This document shows, in pieces, positions 47,111 through 50,015 of a stretch of 64,000 bases of DNA. Every line of letters begins with the position of its first letter. The stretch's first letter is position 1. The notes under the pieces were generated by a model that made no database searches, was not told the origin of the DNA, and worked only from the letters and a program-made list of their open reading frames with translations. The position numbers and the translations under genes are program-made. Source of the DNA: a virus; UHGV virus genome UHGV-0098755, one strand, 5' to 3'.

Positions 47111-47371
47111 TTATTTCATATTATTGAAATATTCTTCAGCGATTTCGTCGTTATCATGGTAAACTTTAGAAGACAGTTTAACATAACTTTCAGCAGTGAA
47201 CATGTTAATCACAACCTTTACAGTATACCACTGACCATCTTCATTACCCATTACTGCATAGGTTTCAAACATCGGATGGTCAGGACCGATAACTTTAATA
47301 TCATTCACTGTACGACCGAAATCTTCTGAAACACATTTCATAAAGAAGTTGAACAGTTCGCCGTAATTATC
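47111..47371 (-). CDS. Small hypothetical protein
   Basis: ORF 47111..47437; upstream codons are a translated promoter; likely start MDNYGELF at 47369-47371 with GGAG. Confidence 0.45.
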   Translation of the reverse strand, partial: DNYGELFNFFMKCVSEDFGRTVNDIKVIGPDHPMFETYAVMGNEDGQWYTVKVVINMFTAESYVKLSSKVYHDNDEIAEEYFNNMK

Positions 47372-47397
47372 CATTTCGTTCTCCAAGTTGTTTTCTG

Positions 47398-47455
47398 TAT
47401 CAGTAGTTGATAGTTGTATAGTACCATGGAATGACAAGGGTGTAAACAGTTTTGT
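47398..47455 (-). promoter_or_regulatory. T4-type early promoter
   Basis: GTTTACACCCTTGTCATTCCATGGTACTATACAAC with conserved upstream block. Confidence 0.7.
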
Positions 47456-47576
47456 GAAAAAATTTTTAAAAAGTTTTAGGGAATTCTAGGGCAAAGAGGG
47501 GCAATTAAAGGATAGGATAATATATTAAAAGGGTAGAAACTAAATGATGCCTAGAGAGGTCCAGAAAGGCCTAGAT

Positions 47577-47607
47577 ACTAAAAAGCCCCAACCTTTCGGT
47601 CGGGGCT
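47577..47607 (-). terminator. Intrinsic terminator at the end of the tRNA/stable-RNA transcription unit
   Basis: GCCCCGACC-GAAA-GGUUGGGGC hairpin followed by UUUUU. Confidence 0.65.
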
Positions 47608-47619
47608 AAGCCTTGCGGC

Positions 47620-47915
47620 AACCTTGTCGGGGTTCCACCTGCTAAGGCAAGTGTTTGTACGAAACGCCGGGATTCGAACCCGGTTATTAAGTAGTTGACG
47701 CTACTCAATATTTTTAAAAGGCCATATCTCGACCATATCCGAACGTTCCGTCAAAAACGCTACTCGGCTTACGGCAAAGATATTTCCTCGAATCGATAAT
47801 TCTGTGCGCCGTTTCTGCTGTGATGTAAGGGGACATTAACAGATCGTAAAGATTTGTTAATGCCAGTCCTTACCCAGGGAACATCAGTCCGACGACTTAC
47901 CGGTAGCGACCCGGT
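47620..47915 (-). ncRNA. Candidate small stable RNA region (tRNA-like T-arm, no ORF)
   Basis: About 300 nt without ORFs next to the tRNA cluster; contains CCGGGTTCGAATCCCGG T-arm-like hairpin and other stems; ends at a terminator hairpin. Boundaries not defined. Confidence 0.35.
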
Positions 47916-47918
47916 TTC

Positions 47919-48269
47919 TTAGTATTCTTTTAAAGCATCAATCTGTTCACGGCGTTTACGCCATAAATCAATTGCCTCATACGCGGATTCAGCATTTCGA
48001 ATTGGTCGGCATTTATGTAAAGACTTGTGATTTTGATATTTTGTAGATAATGGAATTTTATCTAAAAGGTCTTTACGTTCAAAGTATTCGTAACCATCTA
48101 AACCAAATGAACGATTTTTGAGAAATTGCCAATGACCATATTCGTTTTGGATGTAAATATAATCCGCGTGTTGATAAAGCAAATTAGTTTCACGAGATGA
48201 GATATGGTTTTCATATTCATTGAAGTAAAATGTTAAATCATGAACTACTAAATAAACATTACCTTTCAT
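47919..48269 (-). CDS. Hypothetical protein between tRNA-Arg and the ORF-free RNA region
   Basis: 116-aa ORF. Confidence 0.4.
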   Translation of the reverse strand: MKGNVYLVVHDLTFYFNEYENHISSRETNLLYQHADYIYIQNEYGHWQFLKNRSFGLDGYEYFERKDLLDKIPLSTKYQNHKSLHKCRPIRNAESAYEAIDLWRKRREQIDALKEY

Positions 48270-48287
48270 ATTTTCCTCACTTATAAT

Positions 48288-48363
48288 TGGTCGAGGCAGT
48301 AGGGATCGAACCTACGACCCAGGACTTAGAAGGTCCTTGCTCTTCCTTCTGAGCTATGCCTCG
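48288..48363 (-). tRNA. tRNA-Arg (anticodon UCU), CCA encoded
   Basis: Hand-folded cloverleaf: acceptor CGAGGCA/UGCCUCG, anticodon loop CUUCUAA, T-arm GGUUCGAUCC. Confidence 0.85.
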
Positions 48364-48367
48364 TATT

Positions 48368-48442
48368 TGGCGGACGTGATAGGATTCGAACCTATAACCA
48401 ATCGCTTAACAGGCGATCGCTCTGCCATTGAGCTACACATCC
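48368..48442 (-). tRNA. tRNA-Asn (anticodon GUU), CCA encoded
   Basis: Acceptor GGAUGUG/CACGUCC, anticodon stem AUCGC/GCGAU, loop CUGUUAA, T-arm GGUUCGAAUCC. Confidence 0.8.
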
Positions 48443-48446
48443 AAAT

Positions 48447-48534
48447 TGGTGGGGAGTGATGGAGTCGAACCACCCGAGTCGCAATGACAATGGATTTACA
48501 GTCCACACCGCTACCTCTACGGGATAACTCCCCA
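48447..48534 (-). tRNA. tRNA-Tyr (anticodon GUA), type II with long variable arm, CCA encoded
   Basis: Acceptor GGGGAGU/ACUCCCC, anticodon loop CUGUAAA, long extra arm, T-arm GGUUCGACUCC. Confidence 0.8.
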
Positions 48535-48543
48535 AATTAATTT

Positions 48544-48617
48544 GGTGGCCCTGGGTGGAATTGAACCACCATCTGGCGATTATGAGTCGCTTGCTTGAAC
48601 CTTCCAGCTACAGGGCC
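48544..48617 (-). tRNA. tRNA with anticodon CAU (Ile-lysidine type or Met), CCA encoded
   Basis: Acceptor GGCCCUG/CAGGGCC, anticodon loop CUCAUAA; T4 tRNA-Ile is known to carry CAU. Confidence 0.75.
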
Positions 48618-48618
48618 T

Positions 48619-48694
48619 TGGTGCTGATTGACGGAATCGAACCGCCGACCTTCTCATTACAAGTGAGTTGCTCTACCTACTGAGCTAAATCAGC
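48619..48694 (-). tRNA. tRNA-Thr (anticodon UGU), CCA encoded
   Basis: Acceptor GCUGAUU/AAUCAGC, anticodon loop CUUGUAA, T-arm GGUUCGAUUCC. Confidence 0.8.
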
Positions 48695-48699
48695 AAAAC

Positions 48700-48789
48700 T
48701 GGCGGAGGCGATAGGATTTGAACCTATGAGTCGCCGGAGCGACTGCCGGTTTTCAAGACCGGTGCATTAAACCACTCTGCCACGCCTCC
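48700..48789 (-). tRNA. tRNA-Ser (anticodon UGA), type II, CCA encoded
   Basis: Acceptor GGAGGCG/CGCCUCC, anticodon stem CCGGU/ACCGG, loop CUUGAAA, long variable arm. Confidence 0.85.
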
Positions 48790-48791
48790 AG

Positions 48792-48865
48792 TCTCCATAC
48801 AAGGATTTGAACCTTGGACCTCCTGATCCCAAATCAGGCGCTCTACCAAACTGAGCTACACGGAG
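48792..48865 (-). tRNA. tRNA-Pro (anticodon UGG), CCA not encoded; 2 nt from tRNA-Ser (dimeric precursor arrangement)
   Basis: Acceptor CUCCGUG/UAUGGAG, anticodon stem CCUGA/UCAGG, loop UUUGGGA. Confidence 0.8.
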
Positions 48866-48875
48866 TAAATTAAAT

Positions 48876-48949
<74 letters not shown>

Positions 48950-48954
48950 AAATT

Positions 48955-49041
48955 TGGTGCGAGAAGTGGGACTCGAACCCACAAGGAAATCATTCCGCAG
49001 CATTTTAAGTGCTGTGCCTTTACCAATTTGACCATTCTCGC
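48955..49041 (-). tRNA. tRNA-Leu (anticodon UAA), type II, CCA encoded
   Basis: Acceptor GCGAGAA/UUCUCGC, anticodon stem CAGCA/UGCUG, loop CUUAAAA, long variable arm. Confidence 0.85.
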
Positions 49042-49042
49042 G

Positions 49043-49115
49043 CTGGGAATAAAGGACTCGAACCTTTGCATCTAGCAGTCAAAGTGCTATGCCTTACCAA
49101 CTTGGCTAATTCCCA
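49043..49115 (-). tRNA. tRNA-Gln (anticodon UUG), CCA not encoded; 1 nt from tRNA-Leu
   Basis: Acceptor UGGGAAU/AUUCCCA (U1-A72), anticodon stem UAGCA/UGCUA, loop CUUUGAC. Confidence 0.85.
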
Positions 49116-49725: not shown

Positions 49726-50015
49726 GCTGCATTAATGTAAGTATATTTAATACATTCAAGACCCAAAGGATTCTTGAAAATATCATATTCAAGAGGACCT
49801 TTTTCTGTTTCAATAAAGAAATCAAAATTTACTGTATTAAATTTACGGTCTTCCTTTACTAATTTAACTTGAGAAGATGAACGGTCAATGTAAACCTTTT
49901 CAACTTCAAAACATGTTAAAATGCCATAATCATCAATCAAGGCTTTAGCCGCATCTTGATCATATTTATATCCATTTTCAATGGATGATACTTTCGCATA
50001 AAGAATCACTATCAA
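49719..50015 (-). CDS. Hypothetical protein
   Basis: 98-aa ORF. Confidence 0.45.
   Translation of the reverse strand: MIVILYAKVSSIENGYKYDQDAAKALIDDYGILTCFEVEKVYIDRSSSQVKLVKEDRKFNTVNFDFFIETEKGPLEYDIFKNPLGLECIKYTYINAAW

What the first reader, a model, noticed from the sequence alone, without database searches (positions are those of the whole stretch)
47612..47915. ORF-free 300-nt region with tRNA-like T-arm: candidate small stable RNAs
Between the terminator at 47577-47607 and the ORF at 47919 there are no ORFs on either strand, yet the minus strand contains a perfect T-arm-like element (CCGGGUUCGAAUCCCGG) and several other stems. T4 encodes two small stable RNAs of unknown function beside its tRNA genes; this could be their counterpart, or a tRNA-like/tmRNA-like element.
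Basis: partly seen in the sequence, partly recalled or inferred. Interest (0 to 1): 0.45.

Follow-up and report, generated by a model that had tools for sequence, protein, structure and literature searches.

The report
T4 small stable RNAs rnaC, rnaD
This 300-base stretch encodes this phage's copies of the two small stable RNAs (rnaC and rnaD) long known beside phage T4's tRNA genes, so the find is not new, though their job is still unknown after 50 years.

Summary
On the minus strand, window 47803-47921 is the orthologue of T4 rnaD (species 2 RNA, about 91% identical). Window 47658-47796 is the orthologue of T4 rnaC (species 1 RNA, 138/139 identical). They are the last two genes of the phage tRNA operon and are followed by a 50-nt trailer and the intrinsic terminator at 47577-47607. 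The window has a T2-type tRNA region.

Rfam has no family for either RNA, and ARAGORN calls neither. The papers I could search still describe their function as unknown.

Comparison of 26 to 30 rnaC variants from at least ten T4-like genera gives a covariation-backed fold. It is a tRNA-like cloverleaf: a 7-bp acceptor stem, a canonical T arm, a 3-bp D-like stem carrying a 64-66-nt arm, and a 10-bp arm in place of the anticodon arm. The two arm tips (UUGACG and CGUCAA) are perfectly complementary in every variant, with two independent compensatory changes.

rnaD is a conserved frame around a hypervariable hairpin.

Verdict: already known genes, function unknown. Most likely they are stable tRNA-mimic RNAs matured by tRNA-processing enzymes.

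The parts
47803..47921 (-). rnaD (species 2 RNA) orthologue, about 119 nt. It has a conserved 5' part (about 45 nt) and a conserved 3' part (about 21 nt) around a variable central hairpin.
   Evidence: Local alignment to T4 rnaD covers window 47804-47919. Fold: -39.9 kcal/mol, z = -3.7. Covariation: 4 pairs with changes on both sides against 1.0 +/- 0.9 in shuffles.
47899..47915 (-). rnaD 5' hairpin: a 5-6-bp stem (ACCGG/CCGGU) with the 7-nt loop GUCGCUA.
   Evidence: Present in the minimum-energy and consensus folds. One A-U to G-C compensatory change and one C-G to U-G change.
47823..47875 (-). rnaD hypervariable central hairpin. It exists in three unrelated sequence versions among close relatives: window/T4 type, T2 type and JS10 type.
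   Evidence: Sequences and alignment A5. All three versions fold as a hairpin closed by the same conserved frame.
47797..47802 (-). 6-nt spacer between rnaD and rnaC (GAAUUA here, AAAUUA in T4). It is the 5' leader of rnaC.
   Evidence: T4 annotation.
47658..47796 (-). rnaC (species 1 RNA) orthologue, 139 nt by the T4 annotation. The covariance model match runs to 47655 and includes the conserved CAA.
   Evidence: 138/139 identical to T4 rnaC. Single model hit in the window at 167.8 bits. Covariation: 32 pairs with changes on both sides against 13 +/- 2.2 in shuffles.
47789..47795 (-). rnaC acceptor-like stem, 5' strand (nt 2-8). It pairs with nt 131-137 (47660-47666).
   Evidence: A4-U135 changes to G4-C135 (12 versus 14 variants). 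The two U.U mismatches become U-A and C-G in the Yersinia phage TG1 lineage.
47660..47666 (-). rnaC acceptor-like stem, 3' strand (nt 131-137). It is followed by U138 and a conserved N-C-A-A (ACAA here).
47719..47788 (-). rnaC long arm (nt 9-78). A 3-bp D-like stem is followed by an internal loop containing G74 G75, then a 64-nt irregular helix.
   Evidence: 14 of 16 pairs in the middle helices and 5 of 6 pairs in the apical stem show changes on both sides. Arm length stays 64-66 nt across three non-homologous sequence types.
47749..47754 (-). Apical loop of the long arm, UUGACG (nt 43-48). Proposed partner of the CGUCAA loop.
47685..47710 (-). rnaC hairpin 2 (nt 87-112): a 10-bp stem with the 6-nt loop CGUCAA (47695-47700), in the position of a tRNA anticodon arm.
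   Evidence: 8 of 10 stem pairs show changes on both sides. The loop is complementary to the apical loop in every variant.
47711..47718 (-). Single-stranded U/A-rich linker (nt 79-86) between the long arm and hairpin 2.
   Evidence: Unpaired in all folds. The U-rich half varies and the A-run is conserved.
47667..47683 (-). rnaC T arm (nt 114-130): a 5-bp stem and the canonical T-loop UUCGAAU.
   Evidence: Exact match, 0 expected by chance. Two of the 5 stem pairs show changes on both sides, G-C to U-A in 12 variants and C-G to U-A in 2.
47608..47657 (-). Conserved 3' trailer between rnaC and the terminator. It is predicted to form small hairpins.
   Evidence: Nearly identical in T4 and Kha5h. 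Kept directly after rnaD in Dhakavirus phages, which lack rnaC. Fold.
47577..47607 (-). Intrinsic terminator of the tRNA/rnaD/rnaC transcription unit.
   Evidence: 10-bp G+C-rich stem plus T-run. Annotated as a terminator in the Kha5h and X03016 records.
47919..48269 (-). Context: a 116-aa ORF of unknown function inserted between tRNA-Arg and rnaD (T2-type layout). Its stop codon overlaps the start of rnaD homology.
   Evidence: PHROG 3355, function unknown. Same ORF in T2. T2L map in PMC2330249.
48288..49115 (-). Context: a cluster of 10 tRNA genes transcribed in the same direction, upstream of the two RNAs.
   Evidence: ARAGORN and Rfam.

Best explanation
The region holds the orthologues of phage T4 rnaD (species 2 RNA) and rnaC (species 1 RNA). 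They are the last two genes of the minus-strand tRNA operon of a Tequatrovirus with a T2-type tRNA region.

Shown here:
- Homology, order and synteny with the T4 genes.
- The terminator downstream.
- No late-promoter motif between tRNA-Arg and rnaD.
- A fold for rnaC that is backed by covariation.

The rnaC fold is a tRNA-shaped cloverleaf. It has a 7-bp acceptor stem stacked directly on a canonical T arm. A 3-bp D-like stem has its 'D-loop' expanded by a 64-66-nt arm. A 10-bp hairpin stands where the anticodon arm would be. The 6-nt loops at the tips of the long arm and of that hairpin (UUGACG and CGUCAA) are complementary in every variant and co-vary.

rnaD is a 5' hairpin plus a long rod. 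Its frame is invariant and its central hairpin is hypervariable.

Inferred:
- Both RNAs are cut from the polycistronic tRNA transcript by the host tRNA-maturation machinery. For rnaC this would be RNase P at the 5' end of the acceptor/T-arm mimic, then 3' trimming. In other genera rnaC sits exactly between two tRNA genes, with 5-6-nt spacers.
- They accumulate because they fold compactly.
- rnaC cannot be a translational adaptor. It has no anticodon stem-loop, and most lineages, including this window, encode N-C-A rather than CCA.

Most likely role (about 0.3, inference only): a stable tRNA mimic that occupies or titrates a protein that recognises tRNA by its acceptor/T-arm shape. That protein could be a host tRNA-directed defence or processing enzyme, or a phage protein. 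The exchangeable arm of rnaC and the variable hairpin of rnaD would then be the parts that evolve with the partner.

Confidence that these are the rnaC/rnaD orthologues and that rnaC is tRNA-like is about 0.95.
For: Identity and synteny:
- The T4 annotation and alignments give 138/139 identity for rnaC and about 91% for rnaD.
- More than 680 phage records hold the whole region. A few annotate rnaC/rnaD or species 1/2 RNA.
- TATAAATA occurs only upstream of the tRNA cluster.

rnaC fold:
- On the MAFFT alignment, 95.9% of cells are paired. 18 pairs show changes on both sides, against 7.8 +/- 1.6 in shuffles (0/500) and 1-3 when the partners are slid.
- On the model-fitted alignment of 26 variants, 32 pairs show changes on both sides, against 13 +/- 2.2 (0/500) and 7-11 when slid.
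- The loop-loop helix was not part of the covariance model. It is paired in 26 of 26 variants. Two positions show compensatory double changes in two separate lineages: UUGAUG/CAUCAA in Tegunavirus and UUGGCG/CGCCAA in Marfavirus. No change is one-sided.
- Three non-homologous long-arm sequences all keep UUGACG at the apex and an arm length of 64-66 nt.

tRNA-likeness and processing context:
- rnaC lies between tRNA genes in EcS1, KM16, Pet-CM3-4, Ursula and ABTNLPp2.
- Real tRNAs score 16-26 bits end to end against the rnaC model.
- ARAGORN and one GenBank record mistake part of rnaC for a tRNA.

Expression in T4:
- RNAC and RNAD are detected and classed as late RNAs, with a Northern blot (PMC9697503).

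Hint of interaction with the host:
- One SNP in rnaD arose in all three lines of a T4-like phage adapting to a semi-permissive E. coli strain (PMC12685909).
- The rnaD central hairpin is replaced wholesale between close relatives.
Against: There are no expression or end-mapping data for this particular phage. The ends are transferred from the T4 annotation, and that annotation is itself inconsistent: 137 nt in X03016 against 139 nt in NC_000866.

Here a 116-aa ORF separates tRNA-Arg from rnaD, so the way the rnaD 5' end forms is unknown.

No partner protein or target is identified. The decoy idea rests on shape and evolutionary pattern only.

The T4 tRNA region is dispensable in laboratory hosts (PMC2330249). 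Reviews and recent omics papers state that the function is unknown.

Support for the rnaD fold is modest. The basal helices never vary, and the short CUG/CAG helix is broken in several lineages.

Covariation cannot tell whether the loop-loop pairing forms within one molecule or between molecules. Two inverted DNA half-sites would also co-vary.
Confidence: 0.9

Rival explanations
1. Self-assembling RNA. The complementary loops of rnaC pair between molecules ('hand in hand'), giving dimers or closed oligomers. This would be a small counterpart of the phage RNAs ROOL and GOLLD, which sit in tRNA islands and form cages.
For: Two perfectly complementary 6-nt loops are conserved and co-vary. Arm lengths are held constant while sequences are swapped. 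ROOL and GOLLD are phage RNAs of unknown function, often near tRNA islands, and they form homo-oligomeric cages (PMC12286853). RNAs under 200 nt can form cages through kissing loops (bioRxiv 10.64898/2026.07.01.735769).
Against: There are no data on oligomeric state. An intramolecular contact explains the same covariation. With only one complementary loop pair per molecule, a dimer or an open chain is as likely as a defined cage. rnaC has no similarity to ROOL or GOLLD (no Rfam match).
Confidence: 0.12
2. Cis-acting parts of the tRNA operon only. On this view the structured segments serve as entry or pause sites for RNase P, RNase E or exonucleases, or protect the 3' end of the polycistronic precursor. 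The stable products would be by-products with no function in trans.
For: They always lie inside or at the 3' end of tRNA clusters. The tRNA-like shape invites the processing enzymes. The region is dispensable in the laboratory.
Against: tRNAs themselves already supply processing sites on both sides of rnaC in most genera. A spacer would not need an invariant 45-nt arm core, a co-varying loop-loop contact, or a constant arm length. Dhakavirus phages remove rnaC cleanly and keep the trailer and terminator, so rnaC is not needed for 3' end formation.
Confidence: 0.15
3. Trans-acting base-pairing regulatory RNAs. Conserved single-stranded segments would pair with phage or host mRNAs. Candidates are the rnaD internal loop GUUCCCUG and hairpin loop GUCGCUA, and the rnaC linker.
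For: They are described as 'small regulatory RNAs' of unknown function and are expressed late. There are invariant unpaired stretches. The variable rnaD hairpin could be a specificity region.
Against: BLAST finds no similar sequence on either strand of any E. coli genome, so no extended complementarity either; short seed-length complementarity was not tested. No T4 trans-acting sRNA has been characterised (PMC3014915). The most conserved parts of rnaC are base-paired. No target search against the phage genome was done here.
Confidence: 0.12
4. Decayed tRNA genes or relics of mobile-element activity in the tRNA region, with no function.
For: There is a tRNA-like T arm and acceptor stem but no anticodon arm. 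The region is a hotspot for homing-endonuclease-driven exchange, and SegB recognises the T-arm motif in DNA. The region is dispensable in the laboratory.
Against: rnaC is 99% identical between this phage and T4, while neighbouring sequence differs more. It is found in at least ten genera with compensatory changes in every helix. Relics do not keep helices paired at 95%, nor a loop-loop complement through two double changes.
Confidence: 0.04
5. Small protein-coding genes, as annotated ('hypothetical protein') in hundreds of GenBank phage records.
For: Mechanical ORFs of 22-45 aa exist here, and many records annotate CDSs over the region.
Against: Single-base indels occur between close relatives and the rnaD centre is replaced wholesale. 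Substitutions are paired across helices rather than spaced by codon. T4 biochemistry defines these as RNAs.
Confidence: 0.01

Closest known systems
Phage T4 rnaC (species 1 RNA; NC_000866 70908-71046)
   Same: 138/139 identical. Same strand and order: after rnaD, before the trailer, terminator and e.8. Same T arm.
   Different: Essentially nothing in the RNA itself. The operon upstream is the T2 type (tRNA Met, Tyr, Asn, Arg plus an ORF; no segB or tRNA-Ile).
Phage T4 rnaD (species 2 RNA; NC_000866 71053-71171)
   Same: The 5' 45 nt and 3' 21 nt are conserved. The central hairpin is of the same type. The 6-nt spacer to rnaC is the same.
   Different: About 9% divergence, concentrated in the central hairpin. 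In T4, rnaD abuts tRNA-Arg and its end reads ...GCGCACCA. Here a 116-aa ORF precedes it and the end reads ...GCGCACAG, so CCA is not encoded.
Canonical tRNA (Rfam RF00005)
   Same: A 7-bp acceptor stem continuous with a 5-bp T stem and a UUCGAAU T-loop. A four-way junction. Location within tRNA arrays with tRNA-like spacers. An unpaired nucleotide after the acceptor stem. Marfavirus copies even encode U-CCA.
   Different: The D-loop carries a 64-66-nt arm. The anticodon arm is a 10-bp stem with a 6-nt loop that pairs with the long arm. An 8-nt linker replaces nucleotide 26. Most lineages encode ACA or UCA instead of CCA. Neither ARAGORN nor Rfam calls it.
ROOL and GOLLD RNAs (phage and prophage RNAs near tRNA islands; PMC12286853)
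   Same: Phage-encoded, highly structured RNAs of unknown function embedded in tRNA arrays. Loop-loop contacts are central to their architecture.
   Different: They are 500-800+ nt with no sequence or secondary-structure similarity to rnaC. Their oligomeric cages are demonstrated by cryo-EM, whereas nothing is known about rnaC assembly.
phi29 pRNA (own knowledge, not tested here)
   Same: A phage RNA of about 120-170 nt with two loops complementary to each other.
   Different: The pRNA loops pair between molecules to form a ring on the packaging motor. T4 packaging needs no RNA. There is no Rfam match to the pRNA family.

Membership tests
T4 rnaC / species 1 RNA | Sequence homology to the T4 gene over its full length | tested here: met
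   138/139 identical. The covariance model built from family members scores 167.8 bits.
T4 rnaC / species 1 RNA | Position at the 3' end of, or inside, the phage tRNA cluster, on the same strand | tested here: met
   It lies between tRNA genes in other genera.
T4 rnaC / species 1 RNA | Accumulates as a discrete stable RNA of about 140 nt in infected cells | not testable with these tools
   Shown for T4 only (Northern blot in PMC9697503). No data for this phage.
T4 rnaD / species 2 RNA | Sequence homology to the T4 gene | tested here: met
   116-nt local alignment at about 91% identity. Conserved frame in 16 variants.
T4 rnaD / species 2 RNA | Immediately upstream of rnaC, or of the rnaC trailer, and downstream of tRNA-Arg | tested here: met
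   One difference: a 116-aa ORF lies between tRNA-Arg and rnaD, as in T2.
T4 rnaD / species 2 RNA | Accumulates as a discrete stable RNA of about 120 nt | not testable with these tools
   T4 literature only.
tRNA (RF00005) | 7-bp acceptor stem continuous with a T arm that has a canonical T-loop | tested here: met
   rnaC nt 2-8/131-137 and 114-130, with covariation. In this window two of the seven acceptor pairs are U.U.
tRNA (RF00005) | Anticodon arm with a 5-bp stem and a 7-nt loop | tested here: not met
   In that position there is a 10-bp stem with a 6-nt loop, CGUCAA.
tRNA (RF00005) | D arm of normal size | tested here: not met
   A 3-bp stem followed by a 64-66-nt arm.
tRNA (RF00005) | Recognised by tRNA detectors at their thresholds | tested here: not met
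   ARAGORN finds 10 tRNAs, none in 47612-47921. Rfam gives nothing at gathering score. The best sub-threshold match is tRNA-Sec at 17 bits, E = 2.3.
tRNA (RF00005) | 3' CCA end, encoded or added | tested here: inconclusive
   The window encodes U-ACA-A. Marfavirus copies encode U-CCA-A. Post-transcriptional CCA addition cannot be tested here.
tmRNA | tRNA-like domain plus a tag reading frame and pseudoknots | tested here: not met
   ARAGORN reports no tmRNA. There is no Rfam tmRNA match even at E <= 10.
ROOL / GOLLD / phi29 pRNA | Match to the curated covariance models | tested here: not met
   No such match in Rfam scans of the window or of 47400-48300 at E <= 10.

The most novel reading that the evidence does not exclude
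rnaC would be a new class of tRNA-shaped RNA. The acceptor/T-arm half of a tRNA is kept so that host tRNA enzymes mature it. The D-loop carries an exchangeable 65-nt arm, locked to the anticodon-arm substitute by a conserved 6-bp loop-loop helix. That helix may instead join molecules into oligomers. rnaC and rnaD would each be a conserved scaffold carrying a swappable specificity module, and would act in phage-host conflict, for example as decoys for tRNA-directed defence or processing proteins. This would explain the recurrent rnaD SNP during host adaptation.
Probability: 0.2. Interest if true: 0.7.

Novelty: already known. Interest (0 to 1): 0.3.

Why it matters
As a finding it is a correct rediscovery. 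The two RNAs were sequenced from T4 in the 1970s and are annotated in the T4 reference genome.

It still matters in three ways:
- Rfam has no family for these RNAs, and hundreds of T4-like genomes carry spurious 'hypothetical protein' or tRNA annotations over them.
- Their function has been unknown for about 50 years.
- The comparative analysis here gives concrete handles for testing that function. For rnaC these are a covariation-backed tRNA-like fold, a co-varying loop-loop contact and interchangeable arm modules. For rnaD it is an invariant frame around a hypervariable hairpin.

Tried and rejected
- **Rfam.** At gathering thresholds, and at E <= 10 on 47400-48300, only chance-level matches appeared (tRNA-Sec 17 bits, isrK, and others).
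- **ARAGORN.** No tRNA or tmRNA in the region.
- **My first fold for rnaC.** I took the 3' 93 nt as a tRNA with acceptor ACGGAACG/CGUUUCGU. ARAGORN makes the same call in one Enterobacter phage. I rejected it: it has no double changes, its pairing is below every shuffle, and it has an A.C mismatch in half the variants.
- **IMG/VR scan with the 14-mer CACAGCAGAAACGG.** It was too unspecific. It returned 120 loci, nearly all chance, and only L075 was a real rnaD.
- **Locus L154 from the gapped pattern.** A chance match.
- **BLAST of both RNAs against all complete E. coli genomes.** No match, so no evidence of mimicry of a specific host RNA or of extended antisense to host genes.
- **Literature searches for species 1/2 RNA, p2Sp1 and RNase F.** Nothing usable in the library. 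The classical papers (Paddock and Abelson 1975; Broida and Abelson 1985; Miller et al. 2003) are not held.
- **Two apparent hits for rnaC/rnaD in CASP and aptamer papers.** False positives on words such as 'RNAComposer'.
- **Reading the rnaC linker as an anticodon-loop mimic.** It reads CUUUUAA, the same as the tRNA-Lys anticodon loop, and N-U-NNN-A-A in other variants. I considered it but did not adopt it. Two of the seven nucleotides are paired in the supported fold, the pattern could come from U-rich/A-rich composition, and the 'anticodons' do not track the phages' tRNA sets.
- **rnaD hairpin loop pairing with rnaC GUAGCG.** Only 5-6 nt of complementarity, and each RNA occurs without the other in several genera, so I did not pursue it.
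Full report
**What is there**

The window is a T4-like (Tequatrovirus) genome segment. ARAGORN and Rfam find ten tRNA genes on the minus strand at 48288-49115. The order is Gln, Leu, Gly, Pro, Ser, Thr, Met, Tyr, Asn, Arg.

Downstream on the same strand come five features:
- a 116-aa ORF at 47919-48269 (PHROG 3355, function unknown);
- a 10-bp intrinsic terminator with a T-run at 47607-47584 and onward.

It is unique in the window, and shuffles give no match even with two mismatches.

Only mechanical ORFs of 22-45 aa overlap the region.

**Identity**

BLAST against phage genomes finds the region in about 800 records, mostly Escherichia and Shigella T4-like phages. A few of them annotate rnaC or rnaD under the match.

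The T4 reference record annotates rnaC (species 1 RNA) at 70908-71046 and rnaD (species 2 RNA) at 71053-71171, directly after tRNA-Arg. The older record X03016 has the same features with slightly different ends.

The alignment gives these results:

| RNA | Window coordinates (minus strand) | Match to T4 |
|---|---|---|
| rnaC | 47658-47796 | 138/139 identical |
| rnaD | about 47803-47921 | 116 nt at about 91% |

The 6-nt spacer between the two RNAs is kept. The trailer and terminator are almost identical to T4.

The tRNA set and the ORF between tRNA-Arg and rnaD match the T2 layout, which was described for T2L, RB1 and RB3 in PMC2330249.

TATAAATA late-promoter motifs occur upstream of the tRNA cluster (49963-49970, minus strand) but not between tRNA-Arg and rnaD. 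The two RNAs are therefore most simply the tail of the tRNA operon transcript.

Rfam has no family for either RNA.

The papers I could search say the function is unknown (PMC3014915; PMC9697503). The second paper detects both RNAs as late RNAs and confirms this by Northern blot.

The genes are already known.

**Structure of rnaC**

I collected variants from:
- annotated phage records;
- IMG/VR scans;
- one metagenome scan.

The minimum-energy fold of the window sequence (-50.2 kcal/mol, z = -4.6) is a four-way junction. Its parts are:

| Element | Nucleotides | Note |
|---|---|---|
| Acceptor-like stem | 2-8 with 131-137 | Runs straight into the T arm |
| Long irregular arm | 9-78 | In the D-arm position |
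| Linker | 79-86 | U/A-rich, unpaired |
| Hairpin 2 | 87-112 | 10-bp stem, loop CGUCAA |
| T arm | 114-130 | Loop UUCGAAU |

On a MAFFT alignment of 19 distinct variants, 95.9% of cells are paired. Eighteen pairs show changes on both sides, against 7.8 +/- 1.6 in column shuffles (0/500) and 1-3 when partners are slid.

A covariance model built from that alignment finds exactly one copy in the window. It aligns 26 variants, including four whose long arm is not homologous in sequence.

On that alignment, 32 of 53 pairs show changes on both sides, against 13 +/- 2.2 in shuffles (0/500) and 7-11 when slid. This alignment is fitted to the nested structure, so those counts lean towards it. The MAFFT result does not have that bias.

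Real tRNAs in the fetched loci score 16-26 bits end to end against the model. This fits the shared acceptor/T-arm geometry.

The acceptor stem is well supported. A4-U135 changes to G4-C135. The two U.U mismatches of the T4 type are U-A and C-G in Yersinia phage TG1.

**Loop-loop pairing in rnaC**

The apical loop of the long arm (UUGACG, nt 43-48, window 47749-47754) is the exact reverse complement of the hairpin-2 loop (CGUCAA, nt 97-102, window 47695-47700).

All distinct variants keep perfect complementarity. Two lineages carry compensatory double changes at different positions:
- UUGAUG/CAUCAA in Tegunavirus phages;
- UUGGCG/CGCCAA in Klebsiella Marfavirus phages.

Counted alone, the helix is paired in 26 of 26 variants. 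Two pairs change on both sides and none changes on one side. Slid registers pair at 16-51%. These columns were unpaired in the covariance model, so the alignment is not biased towards them.

Three unrelated long-arm sequences all place UUGACG at the apex and keep the arm at 64-66 nt:
- the T4 type;
- the NM4.3/PEi20/Marfa type;
- the fGh-Ecl01 type.

Covariation cannot say whether the contact forms within one molecule or between molecules. A pair of inverted DNA half-sites is a less parsimonious alternative.

**Other rnaC features**

A conserved G74 G75 lies in the internal loop just above the 3-bp D-like stem. One lineage changes G74 and also has a non-canonical T-loop, UGCAUGC. This would fit a D-loop/T-loop-type contact, but it is a single event.

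After the acceptor stem comes U138 and then N-C-A-A: ACAA here, UCAA in TG1 and CCAA in Marfavirus. The window copy therefore does not encode CCA.

An alternative acceptor (nt 46-53 with 131-138) makes ARAGORN call a 'tRNA-Met' in one phage. It has no covariation and was rejected.

**Structure of rnaD**

The fold is a 5' hairpin (stem ACCGG/CCGGU, loop GUCGCUA) followed by a long rod closed by GUCGUCG/CGGCG-C-AC.

Among ten window- or T4-type variants, four pairs change on both sides, against 1.0 +/- 0.9 in shuffles (1/500) and 0-1 when slid. The basal helices never vary, so they are uninformative. The short CUG/CAG helix is broken in several lineages.

The striking feature is the central hairpin of about 50 nt. 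It occurs in three unrelated sequence versions among close relatives (window/T4, T2/Mosigvirus and Dhakavirus). The 5' 45 nt and 3' 21 nt are nearly invariant, and each version still folds as a hairpin in the same frame.

T4 and Providencia phage PSTCR6 encode ...CACCA at the 3' end. The window encodes ...CACAG.

**Distribution and modularity**

The two RNAs are independent cassettes.
- rnaC alone sits between two tRNA genes, often Trp and Gly. This is seen in Karamvirus, Moonvirus, Kagamiyamavirus, Tegunavirus, Gelderlandvirus and other phages.
- rnaD alone follows tRNA-Arg in Dhakavirus phages and in Providencia phage PSTCR6.
- In Dhakavirus phages rnaC is removed cleanly. rnaD joins directly to the trailer that follows rnaC elsewhere.
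- Phages of one genus can carry different rnaC arm types: KM16 against NM4.3 in Moonvirus, and Pet-CM3-4 against fGh-Ecl01 in Karamvirus.

**Mechanism**

Shown here:
- homology, operon position and terminator;
- the tRNA-like fold of rnaC and its loop-loop complementarity;
- a conserved frame plus a swappable module in both RNAs.

From the literature:
- both RNAs are expressed in T4;
- the T4 tRNA region is dispensable in the laboratory;
- a single SNP in rnaD arose in all three lines of a T4-like phage adapting to a semi-permissive E. coli strain. The authors could not explain the effect, and the variant may have pre-existed in the stock.

Inferred:
- maturation by the tRNA-processing machinery. 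RNase P acting at the rnaC 5' end and a dimeric species 2 + species 1 precursor are what I recall from the classical T4 literature, which I could not read here;
- stability through compact folding;
- no adaptor role in translation.

I commit to a tRNA-mimic or decoy role acting on a protein that recognises the acceptor/T-arm shape, at about 0.3. The rivals are:

| Rival | Confidence |
|---|---|
| Cis-only processing element | 0.15 |
| Self-assembling RNA through intermolecular kissing, by analogy with ROOL/GOLLD and small cage-forming RNAs | 0.12 |
| Base-pairing sRNA | 0.12 |
| Functionless relic | 0.04 |
| Small protein-coding gene | 0.01 |

**Verdict**

Some interest remains because the function is a long-standing unknown, no Rfam family exists, and the fold and loop-loop contact derived here make specific experiments possible. 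I could not check whether the 1975 secondary-structure proposals already include these features.

Noticed in passing
window 47919-48269 (-): A 116-aa ORF (PHROG 3355, no Pfam hit) sits between tRNA-Arg and rnaD. It has its own Shine-Dalgarno sequence right after the tRNA-Arg CCA, and its stop codon overlaps the first bases of rnaD homology. T4 has no ORF here and T2 has the same one. How the rnaD 5' end is made in this layout is unclear.
   Followed up: partly
window 47612-47921; phage records: Hundreds of GenBank T4-like genomes annotate 'hypothetical protein' CDSs over rnaC and rnaD. A few label part of rnaC as tRNA-Lys, tRNA-Met or tRNA-Asn. Only a handful annotate rnaC/rnaD. No Rfam family exists.
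   Followed up: partly
window 47711-47720 (-), rnaC nt 77-86: The segment C77-A83 reads CUUUUAA, identical to the E. coli tRNA-Lys(UUU) anticodon loop (own knowledge). In other variants the same place reads N-U-NNN-A-A with a variable triplet: UAC, UUG, CUU, UCU, CAU, CUC, CCA. It could be an anticodon-loop mimic or just U-rich/A-rich composition.
   Followed up: partly
L010, L024, L026 (Enterobacter phage CIP9 group), rnaC T-loop: One lineage replaces the canonical T-loop UUCGAAU with UGCAUGC while keeping the T stem. The same lineage changes the conserved G74 in the internal loop above the D-like stem. This may be a sign of a T-loop/D-loop-like tertiary contact.
   Followed up: no
L150, L151 (Dhakavirus JS10, UP19) about 600-830: rnaC is absent. 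rnaD is fused directly to the trailer that follows rnaC in T4-type phages, as if the rnaC cassette had been excised precisely.
   Followed up: partly
window 47608-47657 (-): The 50-nt trailer between rnaC and the terminator is almost invariant among T4-type phages and is kept in phages that lack rnaC. It folds into two or three small hairpins (z = -3.6 together with the terminator). Its role is unknown; it may be a processing site.
   Followed up: partly
window 48447-48533 (-): tRNA-Tyr(GTA) scores only 30.2 bits against the Rfam tRNA model (threshold 29), while the other nine tRNAs score 59-74 bits. A GTA-anticodon gene in Cronobacter phage Pet-CM3-4 is annotated 'tRNA-Pseudo-GTA'.
   Followed up: no
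L174 (Klebsiella phage Marfa) 306-448; L170 3422-3564: Marfavirus copies of rnaC encode U-CCA-A after the acceptor stem, where T4-type copies have U-ACA-A. So at least one lineage has a genuine tRNA-like 3' end encoded.
   Followed up: partly
window 47111-47437 (-): The e.8 homologue is listed as 108 aa from a TTG start. The PHROG profile and T4 e.8 (87 aa) match only residues 22-108, so the real start is probably the internal ATG.
   Followed up: no
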